In this document: piece by piece, positions 9,599 to 63,961 of the stretch
How positions within the stretch are numbered: position 1 is the first letter of the stretch
Layout of the letters: each line of letters starts with the position of its first letter
Source: Candidatus Omnitrophota bacterium
Lineage (GTDB): Bacteria; Omnitrophota; Gorgyraeia; Gygaellales; Profunditerraquicolaceae
DNA: 64,000 bases
Direction: 5' to 3'
Assembly: GCA_030650425.1 (NCBI GenBank)
Contig: JAUSED010000002.1
Coordinates: 2,388-66,387 of the forward strand
Position numbers and translations under genes: made by a program
Notes under the pieces: generated by a model
What the model was told of the DNA's origin: nothing
Databases searched by the model: none
The model's input: only the letters and a program-made list of their open reading frames with translations

Positions 9599-9611
9599 CT
9601 TTCTCGCCTCA

Positions 9612-18335: not shown

Positions 18336-19840
18336 ATTTTTCTTTCGCGGCCGGAATTGTCGGCTCCGGTAATTATCGTCGGGGTAATAAAGATAATCAA
18401 TTCTGTTTTTGTATTTTCCTTACTTCTGCTGCTAAACAACGGGCCAATTATAGGGGTCCGGGATAATCCGGGCAGGCCGTTTATGCTCCCGGTATCTTCA
18501 TTTTTCATCAGCCCGGTTATAATTAAGGTGGAGCCGTCTTTAACCTTGACCACTGTTTCTGATTGAGAAGTCTGAACTATGGGGACCTGCGAACCGGCAG
18601 CCGTAGTCAAGGTACTCGTTACGCTGCTAACCTCAGGCTTGATTTTCATCGTGATATACCCGTCGGCGCCGATAGTGGGAACAACGCTCAGTTTAACCCC
18701 TACGTCGATAAACTGAATACTCTCGGAAGTAATAGTGGTGGTTTCAGCCTGACTCTGGGATGCGGTTACGTAAGCTTGGCGGCTACCCACAAGAAGCTTT
18801 GCCTCTTCCTTGTTTACCACCACAATCCTCGGCCGGGTAAGCACCTTAGTCGTGCCGTATTGGTTAAGTAAATTCATCACCGCGTTAAAATTATCTCTGG
18901 TCAAGACGCCTAAATCTATCCTTCCGTAAGAAGATAGGGCTGGGCTCACCGCGAAATTACCCACCAAATCCAACTTTTGCCTTCCCGCGTCTTTAAAGAT
19001 TCCCTCCCACGATATGCCGCTTTGTAATTGATCATCGAGGGTAATCTCGATTATCTCTCCGCTAATCAACACCTGCCTGCTTTGTTCATCAAATTCTGCC
19101 ATTAGCTTTTTAATCCTGTTCACCCTTTGAGGCAGGTCAGTAACCATCACTTTAGCGCTCCTCTCGTCAACGATCACCTGTCCTACTCCCGGAGTAATCA
19201 AATCATTAATGTAGGTTTTGAGGTCGGCGAAACGCGCGTAGTTGATATCAAAGACCGCGGTCTCCAGCGGCTGATCCAGTTGTTTGATCGTATCCTCGAT
19301 TACGCGTACTGACTGCGGGGCATCGATGATGATAATCGTTCCGGTAGAATCATCGGAGATTATTTTGCCTACATCGGATTTTAAGTTTGAGATAACATTC
19401 ATCACATTCGCCGGCTTGGCATAGTTCAATTTGATCGTCTTGGTCTCCTTGCGCTCCCAGAATTTTTTGCCGTTGGCCTTTTCGTATTCGGCCCCGGTCA
19501 TTACTTTGACGATTTTACCTTTTATTTCATACGCTAAATCCTGCATCGTCGTAATCACATCCAAGGCGTCGGTAAAGGAAAGGTTATCCATAAAGACAGT
19601 AACCCTTCCTTTAACCTCGGGAGTGGTAATCACCGTCATCCCGCTTTTCTCCGAGAGCATTTTAAATAACTCATTAATTTCTACTCCTTTTAGATCCAGG
19701 GTAATCTTGCTCTCGCTTTTCTCTTCGCCTGTTTGCGGCTGAGCGGGCGCGCTATCCTGTTGAACATCTTCCGCGGATAAAGAACTAAGGCCCATCCAGA
19801 AAATAACCGTAAACGTAACCAATACAAATCCGGCTCTCAT
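18332..19840 (-). CDS. Secretin paralog (GspD/PilQ family), directly upstream of the TPR-secretin with a 4-bp overlap
   Basis: …VLTRPRIVVVNKEEAKLLVGSRQAYVTASQ…GLPGLSRTPIIGPLFSSRSKENTKTELIIFITPTII. The N-terminal domains are homologous to those of 16272-18335. Confidence 0.85.
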   Translation of the reverse strand: MRAGFVLVTFTVIFWMGLSSLSAEDVQQDSAPAQPQTGEEKSESKITLDLKGVEINELFKMLSEKSGMTVITTPEVKGRVTVFMDNLSFTDALDVITTMQDLAYEIKGKIVKVMTGAEYEKANGKKFWERKETKTIKLNYAKPANVMNVISNLKSDVGKIISDDSTGTIIIIDAPQSVRVIEDTIKQLDQPLETAVFDINYARFADLKTYINDLITPGVGQVIVDERSAKVMVTDLPQRVNRIKKLMAEFDEQSRQVLISGEIIEITLDDQLQSGISWEGIFKDAGRQKLDLVGNFAVSPALSSYGRIDLGVLTRDNFNAVMNLLNQYGTTKVLTRPRIVVVNKEEAKLLVGSRQAYVTASQSQAETTTITSESIQFIDVGVKLSVVPTIGADGYITMKIKPEVSSVTSTLTTAAGSQVPIVQTSQSETVVKVKDGSTLIITGLMKNEDTGSINGLPGLSRTPIIGPLFSSRSKENTKTELIIFITPTIITGADNSGRERKI

Positions 19841-29107: not shown

Positions 29108-29809
29108 TTATTTATTAAACCTGAAGTTCGCCAGATCGCAGTCCTGCATGATATAATCTTTCTGCTCCAGGCGCATCTTACCTGCCTGCTTGGCTTGATT
29201 CTCTCCGCCGCATTCCATAAAATCCTTAAAGCTGATGATTTCAGCTCGAATAAATCCCTGCTGGATATCCGAATGTATCGCCCCGGAGGCCTCCCAGGCA
29301 TTTTCTCCGTTTTTGATTAACCAGGCCCGGGTATCTTTTTCACCGGTGGTAAAGAAACTAATGAATCCGCTTTCTTTTAATACCTTGGCTAATAAAGTAT
29401 TCTTATCTTCTAAATCCGCTTGAGCCGCAACAATTACCGGCTTAGCCGTAAACAGCCCGTATTTAACTAATACCTGCTTCTCTTCGCTAGTTAACTCGGC
29501 AGAATAAATAAACTGTTCTTTTTCCAAAAAGTTTTTCAATTTATTTAATAAAGCTTTCTCCGCTTCCTCGCTTGAACGCGAAAGCCGCGTCTCGACGAAC
29601 TCCAAGTCTTTGAGGATAAGGTCGCTCGCCGAATCCTTAGCTACCAGAATCGCGCCCGCGTCAATAGCCGCATCCTCTCCGACAACTTCAACTTGAATAT
29701 AGGTTTTTTTCTTGGCCTTGGTGATGCTATCCACCTGATCCAGGCGGGGATCCTTAATATTATGTTTCCCGGGGGTAATCTCCGGTAATCCGATTACGCT
29801 GATTTTCAT
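29108..29809 (-). CDS. YchF-like protein that keeps the coiled-coil and C-terminal TGS domain but lacks the P-loop and G motifs
   Basis: The C-terminus …TGEKDTRAWLIKNGENAWEASGAIHSDIQQGFIRAEIISFKDF…AKQAGKMRLEQKDYIMQDCDLANFRFN aligns with the YchF TGS domain. The N-terminus MKISVIGLPEITPGKHNIKDPRLDQ goes from the GLP of the G1 region straight to the PDPRLDQ segment with no GxxxxGKS/T motif. The G3 DxxG equivalent reads EVVGED. Confidence 0.55.
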   Translation of the reverse strand: MKISVIGLPEITPGKHNIKDPRLDQVDSITKAKKKTYIQVEVVGEDAAIDAGAILVAKDSASDLILKDLEFVETRLSRSSEEAEKALLNKLKNFLEKEQFIYSAELTSEEKQVLVKYGLFTAKPVIVAAQADLEDKNTLLAKVLKESGFISFFTTGEKDTRAWLIKNGENAWEASGAIHSDIQQGFIRAEIISFKDFMECGGENQAKQAGKMRLEQKDYIMQDCDLANFRFNK

Positions 29810-29817
29810 AGAAATGA

Positions 29818-31773
29818 TTACTGCTCTTCCTGTTTTTTGGTAGCTTGATATTGAGTAATGATAGGAGCGCTCACCTTACGCGGCACTTCTTCGTAGTGTG
29901 AAAAACGCATGGTATATTGCCCCCGGCCTCCGGTGATCGAACGCAGGTCATTGGCGTATTTAAACATCTCGGAGAGCGGCGCCTGCACTTTGACCATCTG
30001 TTGTTTTCCTTTTACCTCCATCCCGATAACCCTCCCCCGCCGGGAATTTATATCTCCGGAGATAGCGCCGAGGCATTCTTCCGGTATGTTTATATCCACA
30101 TCCATGATCGGCTCTAATAATACCGGGCCAGCCTCCATTACTGCCTTGCGTAAAGCCATTGCCCCGGCAATCTGAAAAGCCATATCCGAAGAATCAACTT
30201 CGTGGTATGAACCGTCAACCAGAGTAACCCGGATATCTTCGATTGGGTACCCGGCGACAGCTCCTTCCAAGACTGCCTGGCGCACCCCTTTCTCGACGGA
30301 AGGAATAAAATTACGCGGGATAGCGCCTCCGAATATCTTATCGACAAACTCCAGGCCTTTGCCTCTTGCCAATGGACTAACCTCAAGCCAACAATCGCCG
30401 TATTGTCCGCGGCCTCCTGACTGGCGCTTAAATTTACCCTGGACCTTAATAGTTTTGGTAATCGTTTCTTTATAAGAAACTTTCGGCGTCCCTAATTCCA
30501 CTGCGACATTAAATCTCTTTTTCATCCGGCCGACCATCACTGCCAGATGCAGGTCGCCTAAGCCGGAAACAATCAGTTCTTTAGTCTGCGGGTCGTGCCT
30601 AACCCCGAAGGTGTGGTCTTCTGCCGCCAGTTTATGCAAGGCATCGGAAATTTTTTCTTCATCCTCGCGGGATTTTGGTTTAACCGAAGCAGAGATCGCG
30701 GCTTCGGGGAAGGCTATCGGCTCAAACAAGAATTGCTCTTTATCCGCCGAGAGCGAATCCGAGACGCCCGTCTCTTTCAACTTGGCAATGGCAACAATAT
30801 CCCCGCAAGTAGCAGCCTCAATCTGTCTCTCCTCTTTACCCTGCAAAAGATAAATCGGGCCGATTCTTTCTTTTAAGTTTTTGTTCACGTTATAAAAACC
30901 CGCGTTCGCTAAAAGCTTCCCGGAAAAAACGCGTAATAATGTAAGTTGGCCTACAAACGGATCCGAAATATTTTTAAAAACAAAAGCTGAGAACGGAGCA
31001 TCTTCTTTAAGAGAAAGCTCTTTTTGCTCATCGGGCTTAGTAGAATTAAATACCTTTACAGGATTCCTTTCGGCTGGATCAGGCAGGTATTGCAAAATGT
31101 CCTCTAAAAGATCTTTAATCCCTTGATCGCTCAGCGCTGAACCAGCCAGAACCGGAAAAATCTTGCGCTTACTCACCGCCCGGGCTAACCCAACCTTAAT
31201 CTCCTCCATCGAGAGCCGAAGGGTGGAAAGGTATTTTTCCAATAAGCTATCATCACTTTCAGCGATTGCTTCTACTAAAAGCGGGTCTTCCAAAGATTGA
31301 ATGATCACGCAATTTTTAGAAAGATTGGATTTTAAATCTGCCAGGACTTTATTGATATCCGCGCCTTCTTTGTCCATCTTATTGATAAAGATCATAGATG
31401 GTAAATTAGCTTCCTGGGCCATCTCCCAGGCGCGCGTAGTCCCTACCTGTACGCCGCTTAGCGCATCCACCACAATCAGCGCGCTGTCTACCGCGCGCAG
31501 GCCAGAGATAACCTCTCCGAAAAAATCCGCGTACCCGGGCGTATCGACGATCTGTATACGATTTCCCTGATAATCACAAAAGAGCAGGCTTAAATTTATC
31601 GAGTTTTTCTTTTCTATTTCATCAAAACTGTAGTCGCTGACCGTTGTCCCGTCTTCAACCTTACCTTTGCGGGTCGTAGCTTTAGTGAAATAAAGTATGC
31701 TTTCAGCGAGGGTCGTTTTACCGGACTGGGCATGGCCTAAAAGGATGAGATTGCGTTTATTTTTCACATCCAT
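29818..31773 (-). CDS. Elongation factor G-family translational GTPase paralog with divergent G motifs
   Basis: G1 reads GHAQSGKTT, G3 reads DTPGYADF (Tyr where the catalytic His of DTPGH is expected) and G4 reads NKMD. The EF-G domains II-V follow, e.g. GRGQYGDCWLEVSP and RGQYTMRFSHYEEVP. Confidence 0.7.
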   Translation of the reverse strand: MDVKNKRNLILLGHAQSGKTTLAESILYFTKATTRKGKVEDGTTVSDYSFDEIEKKNSINLSLLFCDYQGNRIQIVDTPGYADFFGEVISGLRAVDSALIVVDALSGVQVGTTRAWEMAQEANLPSMIFINKMDKEGADINKVLADLKSNLSKNCVIIQSLEDPLLVEAIAESDDSLLEKYLSTLRLSMEEIKVGLARAVSKRKIFPVLAGSALSDQGIKDLLEDILQYLPDPAERNPVKVFNSTKPDEQKELSLKEDAPFSAFVFKNISDPFVGQLTLLRVFSGKLLANAGFYNVNKNLKERIGPIYLLQGKEERQIEAATCGDIVAIAKLKETGVSDSLSADKEQFLFEPIAFPEAAISASVKPKSREDEEKISDALHKLAAEDHTFGVRHDPQTKELIVSGLGDLHLAVMVGRMKKRFNVAVELGTPKVSYKETITKTIKVQGKFKRQSGGRGQYGDCWLEVSPLARGKGLEFVDKIFGGAIPRNFIPSVEKGVRQAVLEGAVAGYPIEDIRVTLVDGSYHEVDSSDMAFQIAGAMALRKAVMEAGPVLLEPIMDVDINIPEECLGAISGDINSRRGRVIGMEVKGKQQMVKVQAPLSEMFKYANDLRSITGGRGQYTMRFSHYEEVPRKVSAPIITQYQATKKQEEQ

Positions 31774-31832: not shown

Positions 31833-33020
31833 CTATTCCAGGTAGGTATAAATCTTGCCTTTATAATTGCGCAGGACGTATTTCCCCTTTGCCTGCGAAA
31901 GGATGTAATTCGGGCCCACGGGGATCTTGCCTCCTCCCCCCGGTCCGTCAATAACATAGGTAGGGACAGCGTATCCGGAAGTATGGCCGCGTAATTTTTC
32001 CATAATGTTGATCCCGGCGGCAACCGGGGTCCTGAAATGCTGCGTGCCCCGAACCGGGTCGCACTGATAGATATAGTAAGGCCTAACCCTGACCTGCAAT
32101 AATTCATGCACCAGCTTTTTCATGATATAGGGACGGTCATTAACACCTTTTAAAAGCACAGTCTGGCTGCCCAAAGGAATTCCGGCATCCGCTAACATAT
32201 CGCAGGCAATTTTGCAACGCTTGGTTATTTCTTTCGGGTGATTAAAATGTATGCTCATCCAAATTGGCGAATATTTTTTAAGCATATTCGCCAATTTTTC
32301 CGTAATCCGCTGAGGGAGGGTCACCGGAACGCGCGTGCCCAGCCTTAAAAATTCCACATGCGATATAGAACGGATCCTTTCAAGCAGATTCTCTAATTCC
32401 TCATCTTCTAAAATTAACGGGTCTCCTCCGGATATAAGCACATCCCTTATTTTACGGTTAGCCTTGATATATTCTATAGCCCCGTCAAACCTGTTGGCGG
32501 ACGCGGGATTTTTCTCTTCGTGGTCGCCGACTAAACGCCTGCGCGTGCAATGGCGGCAGTACATCGCGCAATGATCGGTAGCTAATAATAAAACCCTGTC
32601 CGGATAACGGTGCACCAAGTGAGGCGCGGGAGAATCCCTGTCCTCCGCGCAAGGATCAGTCATTTCATGGGGAGTGATCATTGATTCCTGGATCACAGGG
32701 ACAGCCTGACGCCTAATCGGGCAATTGGGATCATCAGGATCTAATAACGTCCCCCAGTAAGGAGTGATCGCCATGGATAACCGTCCTTTGGCCTTATCTA
32801 TCCCCTTCTCTTCGTCGGGAGTTAAGGTAATAATCTGCGACAGGATATCCTTGACGCAGATTCTGTTTTTTATCTGCCAATGCCAATCTTCCCAATCTAA
32901 CGGGTTAACGTCTTTATAAATGCCGATCTGCTGGTAATCGCGCGGCTTCTTGGAAGTGCGGGGTAGCGGAGCGCTCTCCTGCTGCAATTTTTGATTTTCA
33001 ATTGCCTGAAGGCTCGTCAA
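31833..33020 (-). CDS. KamA-family radical SAM aminomutase (lysine 2,3-aminomutase-like)
   Basis: CAMYCRHCTRRR fits the CxxxCxxC motif, inside the conserved KamA core …GGDPLIL…. Confidence 0.8.
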   Translation of the reverse strand: MTSLQAIENQKLQQESAPLPRTSKKPRDYQQIGIYKDVNPLDWEDWHWQIKNRICVKDILSQIITLTPDEEKGIDKAKGRLSMAITPYWGTLLDPDDPNCPIRRQAVPVIQESMITPHEMTDPCAEDRDSPAPHLVHRYPDRVLLLATDHCAMYCRHCTRRRLVGDHEEKNPASANRFDGAIEYIKANRKIRDVLISGGDPLILEDEELENLLERIRSISHVEFLRLGTRVPVTLPQRITEKLANMLKKYSPIWMSIHFNHPKEITKRCKIACDMLADAGIPLGSQTVLLKGVNDRPYIMKKLVHELLQVRVRPYYIYQCDPVRGTQHFRTPVAAGINIMEKLRGHTSGYAVPTYVIDGPGGGGKIPVGPNYILSQAKGKYVLRNYKGKIYTYLE

Positions 33021-34018
33021 TTTAACCCTTTCCTTTCTGAGGCGCTCAAGATGATTGCCTCAATCAGATCTTCGTATTTCATCCCGGCGGCGTAAGCCAT
33101 AATCGGAAAATTCGATTCTTGAGGATCCAATCCCGGTAATGGATTTATCTCCAATACATATGGCACATTAAATTTATCCAAACGTATATCGGTACGCGAA
33201 ATATCCAGGCATCCTACCGCGCGGTGCGTCTTAAGCGCGACTTCTTTTACCCTTGCCTCAACATCCTTATCCAGGCGCGCCGGGCAATGAAAAACAGGCA
33301 CTAGCCCAAGCTCCCTGTTCCCCTGATACTCTTTCATCTTCCAGGAATAAAAATATTCTCCGCTATTTTTGCACTCCGAAAAATCTATCTCCAGAATCGG
33401 CAGGACCCGGGTCTTCCCGTTCTCTAATATCCCGACGGTAAGTTCTTTACCTTCGATAAATTCTTCGGCTAAGGCTTCCTGATGATAGGAACTCAGTGTC
33501 TCTTTCACTCTCTTAAAGAGATCATCGGCGTTATCCACGACATTCGCCTTGCTGATCCCTTTGGCCGAACCTTCGCAATTGGGTTTTACGATTAACGGAA
33601 ATTTTAACGCCGGATCTAATTCTTCGCTGCCTTTGGTAAAGAGCTGGAAATTCGGAGTGGGGATATTTTCCGCTTTTAAGATTTTTTTGGTAATGGTTTT
33701 ATTTAAGGCCAAGGCCAATGAAAAAGTATCCGAGCCTGTGTAGGGAATATTCAGGTAATCCAATATTGCCGGCACCTCTGACTCGCGGAATTTACCGGAT
33801 TGCCCTTCGGCAATATTAAAAACCATATCCACGGAATTTTTTCTGAAATAAGAGAAGAGTTTGGGATATTCCACGTCGATAGCTTCGACATGATGGCCTT
33901 TGGCCTTAATAGCGCTTACAATGGCGTTAATCGTCTCTTCGGAATCGTATTCCGAGAAATAATCCGCGGGCTTAGTTTCGTCTTTTTTCTTTAAATTGTA
34001 GGTTAATGCGATTTTCAT
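33017..34018 (-). CDS. ATP-grasp ligase of the D-alanine--D-alanine ligase family, paralog 1
   Basis: LIVKPNCEGSAKGISK, EFIEGKELTVGIL and YVLEINPLPGL align with the Ddl ATP-grasp core. The N-terminal domain is divergent. Confidence 0.7.
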   Translation of the reverse strand: MKIALTYNLKKKDETKPADYFSEYDSEETINAIVSAIKAKGHHVEAIDVEYPKLFSYFRKNSVDMVFNIAEGQSGKFRESEVPAILDYLNIPYTGSDTFSLALALNKTITKKILKAENIPTPNFQLFTKGSEELDPALKFPLIVKPNCEGSAKGISKANVVDNADDLFKRVKETLSSYHQEALAEEFIEGKELTVGILENGKTRVLPILEIDFSECKNSGEYFYSWKMKEYQGNRELGLVPVFHCPARLDKDVEARVKEVALKTHRAVGCLDISRTDIRLDKFNVPYVLEINPLPGLDPQESNFPIMAYAAGMKYEDLIEAIILSASERKGLN

Positions 34019-34024
34019 TCTATG

Positions 34025-35014
34025 TTAATTTAAATTATGCCTTTTAATCGCGCTATTCAATATTTTTCCGATCATCTGTTCGTAGGTAATCCCGGTATGC
34101 TCCGCTACCAGCTTGAAGACGTCTTCCGTAGAGAGCGAAGGCAAAGGATTAATCTCTAAAACATAAGGTTTCCCTTCACTATCTACGCGAAAATCAACCC
34201 GGCCAAAATCGCAGCAATCCACCGACTTATAAGTCCTTAAAGCGAGCTCGTCGATCTTTTTCTTTAAGTCTTGGGAAATTTTCGCGGGGCAGATGTATTC
34301 CAGCCTATCCGAAGTAATCCGGGCAAAGGTGTAAAATTTATCATTCAGTTTTAATTTTCCGTCGATCTTGATCTGGACAGCCGGCAACACTTCTACCGGG
34401 TCATTTCCGGCGAGCGCCACGGTGAATTCCTGTCCGGAGATAAATTCTTCGACCAATGCCGGTTGTTTATAGGCTGTGACGATATACTCAACCTGTTTAG
34501 CCAATTCTTCTCTGGTCTCTACCCGGGAACTTTCACTCAGGCCTTTGGATGAACCCTCGAAGCGCGGTTTGACGATAAGCGGAAATTTGTGATGATTAAT
34601 ATTGGCTAATTCGGATACGGAACTGACTTCAAAAAATTTCGGGGTGGGGATTTTTTCGGCGATAAAAATCTTTTTGGCCATTACCTTATCGAGGGTAAGG
34701 CCCAGGGTAAGCGCGTCTGATCCGACGAAAGGGATTCCGGCCATCTCAAGCAATATAGGAACCTGGGATTCACGATTCCTTCCAGTGAGGCCTTCGGAGA
34801 TATTGAAAACGATGTCCACTTTTAAAGAGGATAATTTTTCCAGAAGGTTACCGGCATTGCCAATTCTTTCCACCTTAAAACCATTTGATTCAATCGCGGA
34901 AGCTATAACATCAATAGTCGAAGGATGGTCAAATTCCGCGTTGGCATCCGCGGGATCTCCCTCCTTAAACTGATAATCTGACTTTAAATCGTAAGTTAAT
35001 CCTACTATTTTCAT
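34025..35014 (-). CDS. ATP-grasp ligase of the D-alanine--D-alanine ligase family, paralog 2
   Basis: LIVKPRFEGSSKGLSE, EFISGQEFTVALAGN and YVLEINPLPSL. It is paralogous to 33017-34018. Confidence 0.7.
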   Translation of the reverse strand: MKIVGLTYDLKSDYQFKEGDPADANAEFDHPSTIDVIASAIESNGFKVERIGNAGNLLEKLSSLKVDIVFNISEGLTGRNRESQVPILLEMAGIPFVGSDALTLGLTLDKVMAKKIFIAEKIPTPKFFEVSSVSELANINHHKFPLIVKPRFEGSSKGLSESSRVETREELAKQVEYIVTAYKQPALVEEFISGQEFTVALAGNDPVEVLPAVQIKIDGKLKLNDKFYTFARITSDRLEYICPAKISQDLKKKIDELALRTYKSVDCCDFGRVDFRVDSEGKPYVLEINPLPSLSTEDVFKLVAEHTGITYEQMIGKILNSAIKRHNLN

Positions 35015-35033
35015 AAAGTTTTAGCTCCGCTTA

Positions 35034-35066
35034 CAAAAAAAGGCTCTTATTGTCCTAAAGAGCCCT
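35034..35066 (-). terminator. Rho-independent terminator (7-bp GC-rich stem plus U7) lying 20 nt upstream of the ATG of the Ddl-like gene
   Basis: The minus-strand RNA reads GGCUCUUUAGGACAAUAAGAGCC-UUUUUUU-GUAAGCGGAGCUAAAACUUU-AUG. A TTGACA-containing AT-rich promoter-like region lies further upstream at about 35120-35176. Confidence 0.6.
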
Positions 35067-35176
35067 TATCCACCTGCCTGATTTTTCCAATTTATCTTTC
35101 CTGCCTCCGAAAAATTTATCTAAGTGTTGTATTTATGATATTTTTTACCACAATATGTTATAGTTGTCAAGAAATT

Positions 35177-35914
35177 TCAACGAACAAACTCAACTTTTCC
35201 CCAGGTAATCAAATTATTTTTTAAAATAATCACTACCCCTAAAATGCCCTTAATTGAACGGGCGAAGTCCAGCGCCCGCTGCAGGTCCTCCTTGGAATTG
35301 ATCCGGTTGGCTGTCGCGGTAGCTACGCTATCGGCAAGGCTGGTGCTTTTAGAGAGGATAACCACGCTGTCCGCGCAGCCGAAACTTAAAGAATGGCCTA
35401 TTGTCCCTGAAGAAGTGCAGATGCCTAACGGCATATCTTTAGGCCTGATCTCTAATTGAAGTTTATTCCACAATTTAGAGCGTCCTACATATACGCCAAT
35501 CCTGCGGATCTTACGCGACTTTAAGAATATATCCCCGCCGTTTTCGACAATTACGTCTTTGTACCCGGCCTTAAGTAAATCCCTCCCCAGAAATTCGGCG
35601 ATTGCTCCGGCAACCGTGCTCATTGGCCCGACGTTAGCCCGCCCAGATTGTTCAGCCATCTCTTTCACGATAGGATCGGCATTCAATTCAATGGGAATAG
35701 GTTTTAACGCGGTAAGAAAACGATGATCCTTATTGATATAATTTTCAATTTCCCAGCGATAAGCGCGTATCCTCTCTTCGACAAATCCCGCTTTTAAAGG
35801 TTTATTAGTAAAAATCCGCAGGTCTGTTTCTTTAGCGGCTACGTGGGTAGAATAAAGGTCTTTGGCTCTAGCCCAATCACGGTAAAAACATTTCATGTAT
35901 CTGGATGATTTCAT
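35177..35914 (-). CDS. UPF0280-family protein (ApbE-like fold)
   Basis: The similarity covers the full length (…GPMSTVAGAIAEFLGRDLLKAGYKDVIVENGGDIFL…). The start is probably at MKCFYRDW. Confidence 0.45.
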   Translation of the reverse strand: MKSSRYMKCFYRDWARAKDLYSTHVAAKETDLRIFTNKPLKAGFVEERIRAYRWEIENYINKDHRFLTALKPIPIELNADPIVKEMAEQSGRANVGPMSTVAGAIAEFLGRDLLKAGYKDVIVENGGDIFLKSRKIRRIGVYVGRSKLWNKLQLEIRPKDMPLGICTSSGTIGHSLSFGCADSVVILSKSTSLADSVATATANRINSKEDLQRALDFARSIKGILGVVIILKNNLITWGKVEFVR

Positions 35915-35915
35915 C

Positions 35916-36995
35916 TTAACAAATCCTCGGCAGTGGTTCAGAAGTCAACATATCCAAAATGCGTTCAGTATTAAAAACAGTGCGTAAGATTACCCGGCCC
36001 GCGGGCTTTTTAACCACCGTCCCGATAATTTCTGCGTTTTTTCCCAAAGGATGCCTTCTGAGCAAACGAATAACTTTATCCGCTTCTTCAGGAACAACCA
36101 CTAACAAAGCCTTTCCCTCATTGGCAACATATAACGAGTCTATGCCTAGCAATTCAGAGACAGCCTTAATTTTTTTTGATACCGGTATATTCTTCTCGTC
36201 AATGAATATACCTAAATTAGAGGCTTCCGCTATTTCATTTAAGGTTGTCGCTATTCCTCCCCGCGTCGGGTCGCGCATAAATTTTATTCCTGTAGTTTTT
36301 TCCAGGAGCGGAAGGATTAAGCCGTTTAGGCTGGCGCAATCGCTTTTAATATTCAGCTTTAAATCCAATTCTTTTCTTTTCGCTAAAACGCTAAAGCCGT
36401 GTTCAGCAATATTACCGGTGATAATAATCTTGTCTTGGCAAGATATATTCTTTACCGAAAGTTTTCTGGATGTAAGCAACCTGCCTATGCCTGAGGTATT
36501 AATAAATAATTTATCCGCGGCCAGCTTCTCCACGACCTTGGTGTCTCCGGTGACCACCTTGACCGCTGCTGCTTTAGCGTAACTAGATATGGAATCGATT
36601 ATTTTTTCCAAAATACTAATCTCCAAGCCTTCCTCGATAATCAAAGCCAGAGAAATATATTCGGGAAGAGCGCCCAGCATAACCAAATCATTAATCGTTC
36701 CGGTTACGGCTAGTTTACCAATATCTCCTCCGGGGAAAAATAGCGGGCTGACCACGAAAGAATCGGTAGTAAAAGCTATTTTTTCTTGATAGTCGATAAC
36801 CGCGCTATCCGCGAGCTCACTTAGAATAGGGTTATCAAATTTCTTAAGCAGCGTGCTTTGAATAAAGTTATGGGTCAGCCTTCCGCCGCTGCCATGGCCA
36901 AGTAATATTTTAGTTGTTTTTTCCACCGGTCTTTTTGAAGAGGTCCAAGAACCTGTCTTCGTATTCCTTATAGACGTTCCACTTATCCAATTCAA
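35916..36995 (-). CDS. hypE: Hydrogenase maturation factor HypE (PurM-like carbamoyl dehydratase)
   Basis: The N-terminus …ILLGHGSGGRLTHNFIQSTLL… matches the HypE N-terminus. The C-terminus ends …SEPLPRIC, matching the HypE PRIC motif. The true start is probably downstream of the track start, because that start overlaps the PAC2 gene by 85 nt. Confidence 0.8.
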   Translation of the reverse strand: MNWISGTSIRNTKTGSWTSSKRPVEKTTKILLGHGSGGRLTHNFIQSTLLKKFDNPILSELADSAVIDYQEKIAFTTDSFVVSPLFFPGGDIGKLAVTGTINDLVMLGALPEYISLALIIEEGLEISILEKIIDSISSYAKAAAVKVVTGDTKVVEKLAADKLFINTSGIGRLLTSRKLSVKNISCQDKIIITGNIAEHGFSVLAKRKELDLKLNIKSDCASLNGLILPLLEKTTGIKFMRDPTRGGIATTLNEIAEASNLGIFIDEKNIPVSKKIKAVSELLGIDSLYVANEGKALLVVVPEEADKVIRLLRRHPLGKNAEIIGTVVKKPAGRVILRTVFNTERILDMLTSEPLPRIC

Positions 36996-37899
36996 CCTTT
37001 AACTCGCGGGCTTTCGATATATCCGTTTTTGCCTGAGTGAAAAACTGCTCGATCCTATCCTTAACCGAAACAGGGAGTTTAGTAAGTTGGTTCAAAGATT
37101 TTTTTATTTTCTCTATATCGTCTTCTCCAATCGGCCCGGCGCTAGCCCCCCCAAGCTTCAGATAATCCAGAAGCTTATTAATCTCTTCTTCCATCGTGTG
37201 CGCTTGAGTGTCGAGGCCGGATAAATCGATTTTAATCCCGGTAATCATAGCTAAGGCATTTAAAACAGCGGCGGAGGCTTTAGGATTTTCAATCTGGATG
37301 GTATAAAGCGGTATCTCACCTAAAAGGCAAAGTCCGCTCAATCCTTCTCTTTTGGCTATCCCCAAGAAAAGGCCGTTCATCCCGCTGATCTGGCCGTCAT
37401 TTAAACTATTGAGCTTTAATTTCTTAAGGTTATTACTGAGCTCTTCGGAAGTAGCAGCGAACCAAATTCCGGAATTCTGCGTGTGGTCAATGGTCTGAGG
37501 CATAGAAGCAAAACTGATCACCTTATCCGCCTTGAAACTCTTGGCAACTTGAATAATGATTTTGGAGTAACTTTCAGCCCGCGCTAAATCCGGTTGGGCG
37601 TTGCTGAGAAAGATAATCAGGTCATTCTTACCTTCTTTGTTCTTCCAGAAATAAAATTTACTCTCTGGAAGTTCTGAAGTACTCAATAATCCTTTTTTGA
37701 CCACACTCCCGGATAAGTAGAAGAACCCTTCGGGCTGTATGGAAGCAAATTCTTGGGCATTTAACTTCTCGACCAGATAAGAGGCGGCTTTAAAAGCTAC
37801 CTCCCCCATTCCCGGCCAGGCAACAACTAGATACGGTTTTTTTAAACGCGGACTTTTAGTAATTTTAATCCCTTCCATGATCATTGCTCCTTTATGCAA
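36910..37899 (-). CDS. PAC2-family protein (COG1938; ATP-grasp-related, 'proteasome assembly chaperone 2'-like)
   Basis: …KKPYLVVAWPGMGEVAFKAASYLVEKL… is a PAC2-like N-terminus. The similarity covers the full length. Confidence 0.5.
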   Translation of the reverse strand: MHKGAMIMEGIKITKSPRLKKPYLVVAWPGMGEVAFKAASYLVEKLNAQEFASIQPEGFFYLSGSVVKKGLLSTSELPESKFYFWKNKEGKNDLIIFLSNAQPDLARAESYSKIIIQVAKSFKADKVISFASMPQTIDHTQNSGIWFAATSEELSNNLKKLKLNSLNDGQISGMNGLFLGIAKREGLSGLCLLGEIPLYTIQIENPKASAAVLNALAMITGIKIDLSGLDTQAHTMEEEINKLLDYLKLGGASAGPIGEDDIEKIKKSLNQLTKLPVSVKDRIEQFFTQAKTDISKARELKVELDKWNVYKEYEDRFLDLFKKTGGKNN

Positions 37900-37906
37900 A
37901 AGATTG

Positions 37907-39031
37907 TTAAAATTGATAATTTACCAGAAAATTCTCCAAAACTTGAGCGCCTTTATACAAATTATCGATCTCTGCATACTCGTCGGAAATATGCGCGCAG
38001 CCGCTTGAGCCAAATCCTGAGGCAATCGCCGGAATATGCTTATCTTGAAAAAACGTAATCACGGTCGCGCCTTCCGAACCACACACGCGCGGCCTTACTC
38101 CGAAAACCCGCATTGCTTTTTTTAAAGAGCTGACTAAAGGGTGTTTTTCAGAGATGGTGTAAGCCTGCTGAATCCCCTGGATCTCTATTTTATACTTTTT
38201 GGCGCGTTTATTTAGGGCCGTTTTAAGCGCCTTCAACACATCTCCGGGTTTTGTCCCGGGTAAAAAACGAAAATCCAGTTCAAATTCGCACCAATCAGCC
38301 ACCACATTTACCTTATCCCCTCCTTTGATCGTTCCAACATTGACCGTAGGAGGTTTAAGATATTTATTTTGAGAGTAGGGAAATTTATATTCCTTGATCT
38401 CTTTGATCACTGACGAAGCCAGCTCAATGGCATTCACACCCAGATAAGGATAAGCGCCATGCGCTCGCTTACCCGCGATCTTAACCTTAAGATGTATAAG
38501 CCCCTTCTGTGTTACAACAATCTGGAAATCGTCGGCGTCTAAAACCAAGGCTGCGTCCGGTTTGATTATCTTTTTATCCAAGAGCGGAATTAAACCTAAA
38601 TCCGAACCGCACTCTTCATCCGCGGTGGCAGCAAGAATAAGGTTATAGCCCAAGTACTTTTTATCTTCGATGAGGCTGTTGACTGCCTCTATGGCGCAGG
38701 CGAGATTACCTTTGCAATCCGTCGCGCCTAAACCATAAATTTTATTCCCGCTAATTTTTGCCGCGAAAGGGCTAACCTTCCAGTTCTTCCCGGCGCAGAC
38801 AGTATCCAAATGCGGAGTAATCAATAATGAGCGTTGATTACCCGGCCTTTCTAAATAAGCGATCAGATTAGAACGCTTCTTTCTGAATTCATAGATACTT
38901 ACCCGCAGCCCTAATTTCTGAAGATATCCTCGCGCAAAATTAGCCAAGGCTGATTCATCGCCAGGCGGATTTTCGGAATTTATCTGGATTAGCTTACGGG
39001 TAAGCTTGATAAGGCGGACTTTATTAATCAT
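37907..39031 (-). CDS. M20-family metallopeptidase/deacylase (ArgE/DapE-like)
   Basis: …GLGATDCKGNLA…DEECGS…HGAYPYLGVNAI… carries the M20 metal-binding signatures. Confidence 0.75.
   Translation of the reverse strand: MINKVRLIKLTRKLIQINSENPPGDESALANFARGYLQKLGLRVSIYEFRKKRSNLIAYLERPGNQRSLLITPHLDTVCAGKNWKVSPFAAKISGNKIYGLGATDCKGNLACAIEAVNSLIEDKKYLGYNLILAATADEECGSDLGLIPLLDKKIIKPDAALVLDADDFQIVVTQKGLIHLKVKIAGKRAHGAYPYLGVNAIELASSVIKEIKEYKFPYSQNKYLKPPTVNVGTIKGGDKVNVVADWCEFELDFRFLPGTKPGDVLKALKTALNKRAKKYKIEIQGIQQAYTISEKHPLVSSLKKAMRVFGVRPRVCGSEGATVITFFQDKHIPAIASGFGSSGCAHISDEYAEIDNLYKGAQVLENFLVNYQF

Positions 39032-60698: not shown

Positions 60699-63961
<3,263 letters not shown>

What the first reader, a model, noticed from the sequence alone, without database searches (positions are those of the whole stretch)
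29108..31773. Two adjacent translation-factor-like NTPases with degenerate catalytic motifs
The EF-G-family protein (29818-31773) has DTPGYADF where the universally conserved DTPGH catalytic histidine of translational GTPases is expected, and GHAQSGKTT in place of the usual G1 motif. Immediately downstream, with an 8-nt gap, the YchF homolog (29108-29809) keeps the coiled-coil and TGS domains but lacks the P-loop entirely. Its N-terminus goes directly from …GLPE… to …KDPRLDQ…, and its DxxG equivalent reads EVVGED. A pair of catalytically impaired ribosome-associated factors could act as GTP-binding but non-hydrolysing regulators of translation, for example in stress or hibernation, or as dedicated factors for the neighbouring KamA/ATP-grasp genes.
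Basis: partly seen in the sequence, partly recalled or inferred. Interest (0 to 1): 0.6.

Follow-up and report, generated by a model that had tools for sequence, protein, structure and literature searches.

The report
EF-G2 paralog plus P-loop-less mini-YchF
In an Omnitrophota genome, a second elongation factor G of the already known "EF-G2" type sits next to a conserved 233-residue YchF that has lost its ATP-binding site; the first is ordinary, and no description of the second was found.

Summary
Both observations are real. The 651-aa EF-G-like protein has GHAQSGKTT and DTPGYADF. The 233-aa YchF-like protein has no Walker-A motif.

Neither gene is an error or a pseudogene. Both are conserved across Omnitrophota, and the YchF-like gene has pN/pS of about 0.18.

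The EF-G-like protein belongs to the known EFG II / EF-G2 subfamily:
- It has the same best NCBIfam model as Thermus EF-G-2 (PDB 1WDT).
- It carries the published hallmark residues.
- All 120 nearest G-domain relatives, from many phyla, lack His after DxPG (93 Tyr, 24 Phe, 3 other).
- Its only peculiarity is a deletion of about 40-48 aa in the G' subdomain.

Tyr at this position does not prove inactivity. Thermus EF-G-2 hydrolyses GTP, whereas mycobacterial EF-G2 does not.

The YchF-like protein is the more interesting part. It is a fixed-length "mini-YchF" that keeps the helical and TGS domains on a stripped-down sheet. Its predicted fold matches YchF (TM 0.81). It occurs throughout Omnitrophota and in one verrucomicrobial clade, is annotated only as DUF933, and appears in no paper I could search.

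The adjacency is frequent (45 of 62 syntenic Omnitrophota loci) but not obligatory. I could not establish whether canonical fusA or ychF coexist in this genome.

The parts
29818..31773 (-). EF-G paralogue of the EFG II / EF-G2 subfamily, 651 aa
   Evidence: It has the five EF-G Pfam domains. The best NCBIfam model is NF009381 at 837.7 bits (cutoff 583), the same best model as Thermus EF-G-2 1WDT at 809.6 bits. An identical protein is deposited as 'elongation factor G [Candidatus Omnitrophota bacterium]'.
31711..31737 (-). G1/P-loop GHAQSGKTT (aa 13-21), followed by Leu22
   Evidence: Gly13 and Leu22 correspond to the EFG II hallmarks Gly16 and Leu25 of 1WDT. The motif GHAQSGKT[TS]L occurs in 110 of 120 orthologues.
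31597..31611 (-). Switch I / G2 equivalent KKNSI (aa 55-59), in place of RGITI
   Evidence: It aligns to S. aureus EF-G. It fits the EFG II pattern xxxSx described in PMC3150367.
31522..31545 (-). G3 / switch II DTPGYADF (aa 77-84). Tyr81 (31531-31533) replaces the catalytic His.
   Evidence: Tyr is present in 118 of 120 orthologues. Tyr is also found in 1WDT and in the deep-branching Omnitrophota homologue in L084.
31372..31383 (-). G4 NKMD (aa 131-134), retained
31159..31296 (-). Shortened G' subdomain (about aa 160-205). Roughly 40-48 residues of the beta-sheet part are missing, and the acidic helix VEAIAESDDSLLEKYL is kept.
   Evidence: The gap appears in alignments to S. aureus EF-G (query 165 aligns to residue 213) and to 1WDT and L084. 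The AlphaFold model shows only helices at 164-201, with pLDDT 84-92 there.
29810..29817 (-). 8-nt spacer between the EF-G2 stop codon and the mini-YchF start codon
   Evidence: There is no promoter- or terminator-like excess in the block. Among 45 orthologous loci the spacing ranges from about -4 to 111 nt.
29108..29809 (-). Mini-YchF, a 233-aa YchF derivative without a nucleotide-binding site
   Evidence: Pfam finds PF06071 only. TIGR00092 scores 136.8 bits against a cutoff of 279.2. The AlphaFold model has pLDDT 92.7 and matches YchF 1JAL at TM 0.81 normalised to the query. More than 120 orthologue clusters are 226-234 aa long, 116 of them exactly 233 aa. pN/pS is 0.18.
29639..29809 (-). Vestigial G-domain sheet (aa 1-57). 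It holds the degenerate P-loop remnant GLPEITPGKH (aa 7-16, 29762-29791) and EVVGED in place of DxxG.
   Evidence: Gly14-Lys15 are invariant, and there is no Ser/Thr or alpha-1 helix after them. About 30 residues corresponding to canonical alpha-1, switch I and beta-2 are missing relative to E. coli/H. influenzae YchF. pN/pS in this region is 0.18.
29456..29638 (-). Helical (coiled-coil) domain, aa 58-118. It is about 9 residues shorter at the tip than in E. coli YchF, with conserved Arg75 and Arg78.
   Evidence: The model has helices at 58-78 and 82-96. Conservation is shown. In E. coli this domain makes the main 50S contact (PMC11814078).
29111..29368 (-). TGS domain (aa 148-233), the most conserved part
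   Evidence: PF06071 matches at E=1e-33. Alignments to 1JAL and 8KIE are. pN/pS is 0.10.

Best explanation
SHOWN.

The window comes from an Omnitrophota genome. Gene 29818-31773 encodes a member of the known EFG II/EF-G2 subfamily of elongation factor G. In this subfamily the switch-II catalytic His is replaced by Tyr or Phe as a family trait. This lineage's copy has additionally lost the beta-sheet part of the G' subdomain.

Gene 29108-29809 encodes a conserved 'mini-YchF'. It has the YchF helical and TGS domains mounted on a five-strand remnant of the G domain. That remnant lacks a functional P-loop (only a Gly-Lys vestige remains) and lacks the alpha-1 helix, switch I, the catalytic-His loop and the G4 region.

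Both genes are under purifying selection. In most, but not all, Omnitrophota they lie in one tightly packed co-directional block: KamA, EF-G2, mini-YchF, PurH, FolC, MnmE, FolE.

INFERRED.

The EF-G2 is an accessory translocase used beside a canonical str-operon EF-G. By analogy with characterised EF-G2 proteins, it would give slow or GTP-sparing translocation, or ribosome trapping, under energy limitation. Whether it hydrolyses GTP is open.

The mini-YchF can no longer bind or hydrolyse ATP in the canonical way. It most likely acts as a nucleotide-independent ribosome-binding factor. It would use the helical domain and TGS domain in the way E. coli YchF uses them to sit on uL14/bL19/H62 of the 50S subunit and oppose subunit association, but without an ATPase-driven release step.

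The two proteins probably serve the same physiological theme, low-energy translation control, rather than forming an obligate complex.
For: EF-G2 identity:
- The G domain's best PDB match is Thermus EF-G-2 1WDT, which has GHAGSGKTT and DAPGYGDF.
- 1WDT and the window protein share the same best NCBIfam model, NF009381. The 1WDT sequence used was checked as 100% identical to the PDB chain.
- The Margus 2011 hallmarks Gly16, Leu25, Leu264, Gly333 and Lys352 are all present, as is the G2 pattern xxxSx.
- The 120 nearest G-domain relatives, from Chloroflexota, Bacillota, Actinomycetota, Acidobacteriota and others, have Tyr (93), Phe (24) or another residue (3) after DxPG. None has His.

Accessory status of the EF-G2:
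- It is absent from the otherwise conserved locus in 17 of 62 Omnitrophota species.
- Complete Omnitrophota chromosomes are reported to carry an S12-S7-EF-G-EF-Tu operon (bioRxiv 10.64898/2026.06.07.730766).

Functional precedents for EF-G2:
- M. smegmatis EF-G2 has Tyr98 and no ribosome-dependent GTPase, and it traps post-translocation ribosomes. The H88Y mutation abolishes EF-G1 GTPase.
- Thermus EF-G-2 retains GTPase and translocation activity.
- Bacteroides EF-G2 gives slow translocation without GTPase activity.

Mini-YchF:
- There is no Walker-A motif in 120 of 120 close orthologues, nor in 28 of 28 representatives of 50%-identity clusters going down to 31% identity.
- The named deep members are all Omnitrophota.
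- The structure model is confident and matches YchF over all three domains.
- There is purifying selection in every region.
Against: - No biochemistry exists for either protein, so both mechanisms rest on homology.
- I could not show that this genome holds a canonical fusA or ychF. The window has none.
- The published per-genome tables that I could see are mixed. K06942 (ychF) is missing from both Omnitrophota KO lists held (genomes 58 and 231). TIGR00092 is listed in 2 of the 4 genomes held, under unknown thresholds.
- The Lys-rich tip that contacts H62 in E. coli YchF is shortened, and only two Arg are conserved there. The ribosomal binding site may therefore differ.
- Domains II-V of the EF-G2 are unusually close to canonical EF-G (475 bits to S. 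aureus EF-G, against a total of 426.5 bits for 1WDT). The deep homologue in L084 even passes the canonical TIGR00484 cutoff. The protein may therefore be a more competent translocase than typical EF-G2 proteins.
- The AlphaFold model of the EF-G2 is only moderate (pLDDT 72).
Confidence: 0.6

Rival explanations
1. Sequencing or assembly error, or decaying pseudogenes. On this reading the Tyr codon and the missing P-loop are artefacts or recent lesions.
For: None was found.
Against: - An identical EF-G protein is deposited independently.
- Tyr is present in 118 of 120 orthologues.
- The mini-YchF is 233 aa in 116 of 120 orthologue clusters and aligns almost without indels across Omnitrophota and Verrucomicrobiota.
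- pN/pS is 0.18 overall and 0.18 in the degenerate N-terminal part.
- The structure model is confident.
Confidence: 0.01
2. The EF-G-like protein is the main or only translocase of these bacteria, and the mini-YchF is their only YchF. On this reading the phylum runs core translation with a His-less EF-G and an ATPase-less YchF.
For: - Domains II-V are very close to canonical EF-G.
- The deep homologue in L084 passes the TIGR00484 cutoff.
- For YchF, the short form is phylum-wide and deep.
- The closest full-length YchFs that carry names are from other phyla.
- K06942 is not called in the two Omnitrophota KO lists visible, although ychF is present in 99.4% of non-CPR genomes.
Against: - For EF-G, 17 of 62 species lack the gene at this locus.
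- A preprint reports canonical S12-S7-EF-G-EF-Tu operons in complete Omnitrophota genomes.
- Margus 2011 found that a single EF-G in a genome is always EFG I.
- For YchF, TIGR00092 is listed in 2 of 4 visible Omnitrophota genomes.

The EF-G half of this rival is unlikely. The YchF half is plausible.
Confidence: 0.2
3. The two proteins are a dedicated module for the neighbouring KamA / ATP-grasp genes, for example a beta-lysine-linked modification or peptide pathway that needs its own ribosome factors.
For: The order ATP-grasp, ATP-grasp, KamA, EF-G2, mini-YchF is kept even in a deep Omnitrophota lineage whose mini-YchF is only 43% identical. It is also kept in 45 species loci.
Against: - The block also contains unrelated housekeeping genes: PurH, FolC, MnmE, FolE and HypE.
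- The EF-G2 drops out of the locus in 17 species while KamA and mini-YchF stay.
- Mini-YchF has other neighbours in Verrucomicrobiota (uvrA, a TPR protein) and in CP070684.1 (probably gltX).
- KamA scores as an AblA-type lysine 2,3-aminomutase (518.8 bits). It does not score as the EF-P modifier EpmB (243.5 bits against a cutoff of 369.3).
Confidence: 0.07
4. Mini-YchF still uses a nucleotide in a non-canonical way through the invariant Gly14-Lys15, or it borrows an NTPase in trans (EF-G2 or MnmE).
For: - Gly14-Lys15 are invariant across Omnitrophota and Verrucomicrobiota and are mostly kept in deep clusters.
- The gene frequently lies next to GTPase genes.
Against: - There is no Ser/Thr after the Lys and no alpha-1 helix.
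- Switch I, the G3 glycine and the G4 specificity motif are absent or not conserved.
- Several deep members lack the GK pair (P0244, P0279, P0290, P0301).
Confidence: 0.1

Closest known systems
Thermus thermophilus EF-G-2 (PDB 1WDT/2DY1), EFG II subfamily (Margus, Remm & Tenson 2011)
   Same: - It is the best PDB match for the G domain.
- It has a near-identical P-loop (GHA[G/Q]SGKTTL) and Tyr in place of the switch-II His.
- It shares the hallmark positions Leu25, Leu264, Gly333 and Lys352.
- It has the same best NCBIfam model, NF009381.
   Different: - The window protein lacks about 40 residues of the G' beta-sheet.
- Its domains II-V are much closer to canonical EF-G than those of 1WDT are. 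Identity to 1WDT is only 26-48% per domain.
Mycobacterium smegmatis EF-G2 and Bacteroides thetaiotaomicron EF-G2
   Same: Both are His-less or GTPase-deficient EF-G paralogues kept beside a canonical EF-G and linked to slow translation under stress or starvation.
   Different: The window protein does not reach the curated cutoffs of either equivalog: NF009377 scores 572 against 890, and NF058620 scores 499 against 1000. The P-loop is less degraded than the GPSGG of MsmEF-G2. The activity of the window protein is unknown.
YchF / OLA1 (E. coli YchF on the 50S, PDB 8KIE; H. influenzae 1JAL)
   Same: It has the same three-part architecture and fold (TM 0.80-0.81 normalised to the query). The TGS domain is highly similar, and the helical hairpin is retained.
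   Different: - It is about 130 residues shorter.
- It has no P-loop, alpha-1 helix, switch I, catalytic His114 loop or G4 motif.
- The helical tip is about 9 residues shorter and lacks the four-lysine patch.
- It fails the TIGR00092 cutoff.
PseudoGTPases (catalytically dead G-domain proteins)
   Same: A G-protein family member has lost its nucleotide motifs but is conserved, presumably as a binding module.
   Different: Here the G domain is not merely mutated but largely excised. The concept has not, to my knowledge or in the searched library, been applied to YchF.
RsfS-type 50S anti-association factors (functional analogy only; from general knowledge, not tested here)
   Same: It is a small nucleotide-independent protein that binds uL14 at the subunit interface. 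That is the same area where E. coli YchF binds.
   Different: It has an unrelated fold. The binding site of mini-YchF is only inferred.

Membership tests
EFG II / EF-G2 subfamily of elongation factor G | [quoted passage not shown] | tested here: met
   Pfam domains are shown. Motif counts over 120 orthologues are.
EFG II / EF-G2 subfamily of elongation factor G | Type I positions: Gly16 and Leu25 in the P-loop, Gly333 and Lys/Arg352 in domain II, and the partner Leu264 (1WDT numbering; PMC3150367) | tested here: met
   The aligned residues are G13, L22, L222, G312 and K331. Position 291 is Asn here and Val in 1WDT itself by my count, so that position is inconclusive.
EFG II / EF-G2 subfamily of elongation factor G | G2 motif RGITI relaxed to xxxSx | tested here: met
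   The motif is KKNSI. The deep Omnitrophota homologue in L084 still has RKITI.
EFG II / EF-G2 subfamily of elongation factor G | Aromatic residue in place of the switch-II catalytic His | tested here: met
   Tyr81 is present. The same is seen in 1WDT and MsmEF-G2. Of the 120 nearest G-domain relatives, 117 have Tyr or Phe and none has His.
EFG II / EF-G2 subfamily of elongation factor G | Best profile match shared with a characterised EFG II protein | tested here: met
   NF009381 scores 837.7 bits for the window protein, 809.6 for 1WDT and 916.9 for L084.
EFG II / EF-G2 subfamily of elongation factor G | Coexists with an EFG I (or spdEFG pair) in the same genome | not testable with these tools
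   The window has no second EF-G. A preprint reports S12-S7-EF-G-EF-Tu operons in other Omnitrophota genomes. The gene is absent from the locus in 17 of 62 species.
EFG II / EF-G2 subfamily of elongation factor G | Branches inside the EFG II clade in a phylogeny | not tested
   No balanced EFG I / EFG II reference set was available. Classification rests on profiles and hallmark residues.
Canonical EF-G (EFG I, fusA) | AHIDAGKTT, RGITI and DTPGH motifs; TIGR00484 equivalog score; location in the str operon | tested here: not met
   The motifs differ. TIGR00484 scores 638.6 against a cutoff of 659.4. The gene lies between kamA and the mini-ychF gene, not after rpsG.
Tet(M)/Tet(O) ribosomal protection proteins | Curated tet_protect profile score | tested here: not met
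   NF012153 scores 329.6 against a cutoff of 775. The only resemblance is a similarly short G' region.
YchF/OLA1 ATPase (TIGR00092) | Walker-A P-loop GxPNxGKST plus G2, G3 and the NxxE G4 motif | tested here: not met
   No GxxxxGK[ST] is present. About 30 residues after the vestigial GK are missing, along with the catalytic-His loop and the G4 region.
YchF/OLA1 ATPase (TIGR00092) | Curated equivalog score | tested here: not met
   The score is 136.8 bits against a cutoff of 279.2.
YchF/OLA1 ATPase (TIGR00092) | Inserted helical domain and C-terminal TGS domain in the YchF arrangement | tested here: met
   PF06071 matches at E=1e-33. The AlphaFold model at pLDDT 92.7 matches 1JAL and 8KIE at TM 0.80-0.81, normalised to the query.
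YchF/OLA1 ATPase (TIGR00092) | Ribosome (50S/70S) binding and ATP hydrolysis | not testable with these tools
   This needs biochemistry.

The most novel reading that the evidence does not exclude
Across the phylum Omnitrophota, the near-universal ATPase YchF has been replaced by a 233-residue version that cannot bind nucleotide. This version works as a constitutive, energy-free 50S-binding anti-association or ribosome-splitting factor. In most lineages it is co-expressed from one operon with a G'-truncated, His-less EF-G2. Together they would form a dedicated low-energy translation mode for ultra-small, energy-limited cells. One verrucomicrobial clade would have acquired the mini-YchF by lateral transfer.
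Probability: 0.3. Interest if true: 0.7.

Novelty: new variant of a known kind. Interest (0 to 1): 0.45.

Why it matters
The EF-G half matters little. It adds one more lineage, with a shortened G' subdomain, to a subfamily that is already characterised structurally and biochemically.

The mini-YchF half is potentially useful. YchF/OLA1 is among the most widely conserved P-loop NTPases, present in 99.4% of non-CPR bacterial genomes in one survey, and its mechanism is still debated.

A naturally occurring, strongly conserved YchF without the ATPase is an evolutionary 'separation-of-function mutant'. It suggests that the helical and TGS domains carry a function worth keeping on their own. It also offers a direct way to test whether ATP hydrolysis is needed only for release from the ribosome, as proposed for E. 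coli YchF.

There is a practical side as well. The protein fails the TIGR00092 cutoff, and TIGR00092 is a bac120 phylogenomic marker (from general knowledge). This may affect completeness and marker statistics for Omnitrophota.

Tried and rejected
1. **Second EF-G, EF-Tu or P-loop YchF nearby.** I searched the window and all 80 fetched loci by tblastn and found nothing. The str operon is not in the window.

2. **Canonical ychF/fusA in the same genomes.**
   - The closest full-length YchFs that carry names came from other phyla.
   - Supplements of the Omnitrophota and ribosome-biogenesis papers gave only fragmentary, mixed evidence.

3. **Literature on a truncated YchF.** A search for 'DUF933', 'YchF-like' and 'truncated YchF' returned no paper containing those terms. 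The Omnitrophota papers do not mention YchF or EF-G paralogues. Han et al. 2023 (PMC9841332) is not held.

4. **Pseudogene or assembly-error reading.** Rejected on the conservation and pN/pS data.

5. **Tet(M)-type ribosomal protection and spdEFG/mitochondrial-type EF-G.** Rejected on profile scores.

6. **Rfam scan of the window.** It found only four tRNAs. The GC-rich first 9.6 kb is not an rRNA operon.

7. **The last homologue search.** The query was the G domain of the L084 EF-G. It returned only fragmentary proteins. These were useful for motif statistics but not for locating a canonical Omnitrophota EF-G.

8. **Fold search with the EF-G model.** Not run, because the model is only of moderate confidence.


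Full report
**What is there**

On the minus strand the window carries a tightly packed, co-directional run of genes. In transcription order they are:
- a PAC2-family protein
- HypE
- a UPF0280/PRK04334 protein
- two Ddl-like ATP-grasp ligases
- a KamA/AblA-like lysine 2,3-aminomutase
- the EF-G-like gene (31773-29818)
- the YchF-like gene (29809-29108)
- PurH, FolC, MnmE and FolE

The EF-G-like stop codon and the YchF-like start codon are 8 nt apart. Promoter-like and terminator-like sites in the block do not exceed what shuffled sequence gives, which is consistent with co-transcription.

An identical EF-G-like protein is deposited as 'elongation factor G [Candidatus Omnitrophota bacterium]'. 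The orthologues of the YchF-like protein are named 'DUF933 domain-containing protein [Candidatus Omnitrophota]'. The window is therefore from an Omnitrophota genome.

**Check of the observation**

The quoted motifs are present.
- The EF-G-like protein has GHAQSGKTT (aa 13-21) and DTPGYADF (aa 77-84). Tyr81 aligns with the catalytic His of S. aureus EF-G, and KKNSI stands where RGITI is expected.
- The YchF-like protein matches only the YchF C-terminal/TGS Pfam domain. It scores 136.8 bits against TIGR00092, whose cutoff is 279.2.
- Its N-terminus runs MKISVIGLPEITPGKHNIKDPRLDQ, so the roughly 30 residues that follow the P-loop lysine in canonical YchF are missing.

One correction: an invariant Gly14-Lys15 survives as a P-loop vestige. 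No GxxxxGK[ST] exists in this protein, in 120 close orthologues or in 28 more distant cluster representatives.

**The EF-G-like protein is a member of a known subfamily**

The evidence for EFG II/EF-G2 membership is as follows.
- When the G domain is searched alone against PDB sequences, the best match is Thermus thermophilus EF-G-2 (1WDT). That protein has GHAGSGKTT and DAPGYGDF, the same His-to-Tyr change.
- I verified that the 1WDT sequence I used is 100% identical to the PDB chain.
- 1WDT, the window protein and a deep-branching Omnitrophota homologue all have NF009381 as their best NCBIfam model. The scores are 809.6, 837.7 and 916.9 bits against a cutoff of 583.
- The hallmarks listed for the EFG II subfamily by Margus, Remm and Tenson (PMC3150367) are present. 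These are Gly16, Leu25, Leu264, Gly333 and Lys352, and a G2 motif relaxed to xxxSx with G1, G3, G4 and G5 retained.
- Tyr is present in 118 of 120 Omnitrophota orthologues.
- The 120 nearest G-domain relatives come from Chloroflexota, Bacillota, Actinomycetota, Acidobacteriota, Nitrospirota and others. After DxPG they have Tyr (93), Phe (24) or another residue (3), and never His.

The 'degenerate' motif is therefore the family signature and not a peculiarity of this gene.

**Does the Tyr mean loss of GTPase activity?**

The literature is split.
- M. smegmatis EF-G2 (Tyr98) lacks ribosome-dependent GTPase and traps post-translocation ribosomes. The H88Y mutation nearly abolishes EF-G1 GTPase (bioRxiv 10.64898/2026.05.25.727771).
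- Thermus EF-G-2, whose P-loop is almost identical to the one here, has intrinsic and ribosome-dependent GTPase activity and translocates.
- Bacteroides EF-G2 gives slow translocation without GTPase activity.

Loss of hydrolysis in the window protein is thus possible but not implied.

**What is particular to this EF-G2**

- Relative to S. aureus EF-G, 1WDT and the deep Omnitrophota homologue in L084, about 40-48 residues of the beta-sheet part of the G' subdomain are missing. The acidic helix (VEAIAESDDSLLEKYL) is kept.
- The AlphaFold model shows only helices in that region, with local pLDDT of 84-92. The model overall is moderate, at pLDDT 72.
- The L084 homologue (682 aa) still has a nearly full G' and an RKITI switch I, but already carries DTPGYADF. 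The Tyr therefore predates the G' deletion.
- Domains II-V are unusually close to canonical EF-G: 475 bits to S. aureus EF-G, against a total of 426.5 bits for 1WDT. The L084 form even exceeds the TIGR00484 cutoff. These may be relatively competent translocases.

**Is it an extra copy?**

- The window contains no other EF-G and no str operon.
- In 80 species-level loci fetched around the YchF-like gene, the EF-G2 gene lies directly upstream in 45.
- It is absent in 17 loci that otherwise keep the order KamA, mini-YchF, PurH, FolC, MnmE, FolE.
- Fourteen loci, mostly verrucomicrobial, have a different context, and four could not be judged.
- A preprint on 176 complete Omnitrophota genomes reports canonical S12-S7-EF-G-EF-Tu operons.
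- Margus et al. found that when a genome has one EF-G, it is always EFG I.

Together these make accessory status likely. I could not demonstrate a canonical fusA in this genome.

**The YchF-like protein is a conserved, undescribed mini-YchF**

Distribution:
- More than 120 orthologue clusters (69-91% identity) are 226-234 aa long, 116 of them exactly 233 aa.
- The same fixed length is found in Verrucomicrobiota at 55-59% identity. The alignment across both phyla is essentially free of indels (one 1-aa insertion, in L056).
- An exhaustive search of 1.84 billion cluster representatives found 28 clusters of 222-235 aa, going down to 31% identity. None has a P-loop, and every deep cluster that carries a name is Omnitrophota.

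Selection: pN/pS against six close orthologues is 0.18 overall, 0.18 in the degenerate N-terminal part and 0.10 in the TGS domain.

Structure:
- The AlphaFold model is confident (pLDDT 92.7, pTM 0.83).
- It matches YchF structures over its whole length: 1JAL at TM 0.81 and E. coli YchF on the 50S (8KIE) at TM 0.80, both normalised to the query.
- What remains of the G domain is a small sheet formed by strands 2-6, 14-18, 38-43, 53-57 and 125-128.
- The alpha-1 helix, switch I, the switch-II helix, the loop with catalytic His114 and the whole G4/G5 region are gone.
- The helical hairpin is kept but is about 9 residues shorter at the tip. Arg75 and Arg78 are conserved there instead of the four-lysine patch.

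Prior description: no paper in the searchable library contains 'DUF933', 'YchF-like' or 'truncated YchF'. The Omnitrophota papers do not mention YchF.

**How it most likely works (inference)**

For E. coli YchF, the cryo-EM study PMC11814078 reports the following:
- The helical domain makes the main contact with uL14, bL19 and H62 at the subunit interface.
- The protein promotes subunit splitting and opposes association.
- ATP hydrolysis is probably needed for release from the 50S rather than for binding or splitting.
- The TGS domain may dock on h5 of the 30S.

A protein that keeps precisely the helical and TGS domains, and discards the ATPase, fits a nucleotide-independent ribosome binder of this kind. 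Its occupancy would then be set by its concentration, or by partners, rather than by an ATPase cycle. Because the helical tip is altered, the exact binding site is uncertain.

**Are the two proteins a pair, or tied to KamA?**

The adjacency is old, since it is present in a lineage whose mini-YchF is only 43% identical. But it is dispensable.
- Seventeen species lack the EF-G2 at the locus.
- Verrucomicrobial mini-YchF genes follow uvrA and precede a TPR protein.
- The complete genome CP070684.1 has the mini-YchF after a class-Ic aminoacyl-tRNA synthetase gene (probably gltX), with no EF-G gene within 10 kb.
- The surrounding block mixes unrelated housekeeping functions.
- KamA scores as an AblA-type aminomutase and not as the EF-P modifier EpmB.

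I therefore see no support for a dedicated KamA-linked module. The support for a functional EF-G2 / mini-YchF partnership is limited to synteny.

**Is the mini-YchF the only YchF?**

This is unresolved.

In favour:
- It is distributed phylum-wide and deeply.
- The closest named full-length YchFs belong to other phyla.
- K06942 is absent from both Omnitrophota KO lists visible in Seymour et al. 2023 (genomes 58 and 231). By contrast, ychF is called in 99.4% of non-CPR genomes.
- A survey noted unusually few ribosome-biogenesis factors in Omnitrophota.

Against, or ambiguous:
- TIGR00092 is listed in 2 of the 4 genomes visible in the same source. The thresholds are unknown, and the table's 'counts' are in practice presence/absence values.

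**Verdict**

- The EF-G part is a new member of a known subfamily, with a shortened G'.
- The YchF part is a new, conserved variant of a known family and is the part worth following up.
- The interpretation as a catalytically impaired pair is only partly supported.

Noticed in passing
window 2-9622 (minus strand): There is a single stop-free reading frame of 9621 nt (more than 3200 aa) that runs off the left end of the window. Its GC content is about 50%, against 42-46% across most of the rest of the window. It lies directly downstream of a 991-aa DUF2341 protein (9612-12587). It is probably one of the giant proteins reported for Omnitrophota.
   Followed up: partly
window 60699-63770 (minus strand): The GyrB gene carries an intein splicing domain (PF14890, aa 471-653) inserted just upstream of, or within the start of, the Toprim domain.
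   Followed up: no
window 31833-39031 (minus strand); same block in L001-L060: A conserved block holds a KamA/AblA-like aminomutase, two Ddl-like ATP-grasp ligases, a UPF0280 (PRK04334) protein, HypE, a PAC2-family protein and an M20 ArgE/DapE-type deacylase. The order is kept across Omnitrophota. The product of the KamA and ATP-grasp trio is unknown; a beta-lysine-containing solute or peptide is one possibility.
   Followed up: partly
L058, L061, L065-L080 (Verrucomicrobiota) compared with the window and P0265/P0269/P0304: Verrucomicrobial mini-YchFs are 55-59% identical to the window protein, while deep Omnitrophota ones are only 31-43% identical. In a rough NJ tree the verrucomicrobial clade nests inside the Omnitrophota diversity. 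This suggests lateral transfer between the phyla.
   Followed up: partly
L084:7850-9895: A deep-branching Omnitrophota EF-G2 (682 aa) occupies the same KamA / mini-YchF context. It keeps a nearly full G' and an RKITI switch I, already has DTPGYADF, and passes the canonical TIGR00484 cutoff. It looks like an evolutionary intermediate between canonical EF-G and the window form.
   Followed up: partly
Proteins P0284, P0320, P0354, P0361, P0364 (representative search): These are YchF relatives of 325-350 aa with unusual P-loops: SGKKT, AGKKT, SGKRT and SGKEE, in place of GKST. One is named 'YchF family ATPase [bacterium]'. They may be a further degenerate or intermediate YchF class.
   Followed up: no
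window 16272-19840 (minus strand): Two tandem secretin genes (687 and 502 aa; the first has C-terminal TPR repeats) lie beside an AAA ATPase, a PKD-domain protein and a PilZ protein.
   Followed up: no
Literature: bioRxiv 10.64898/2026.06.07.730766: The preprint reports selB calls in 174 of 176 complete Omnitrophota genomes, while selA and selD are essentially absent. That is another orphan or re-purposed translational GTPase in this phylum, which may be worth examining together with the EF-G2.
   Followed up: no
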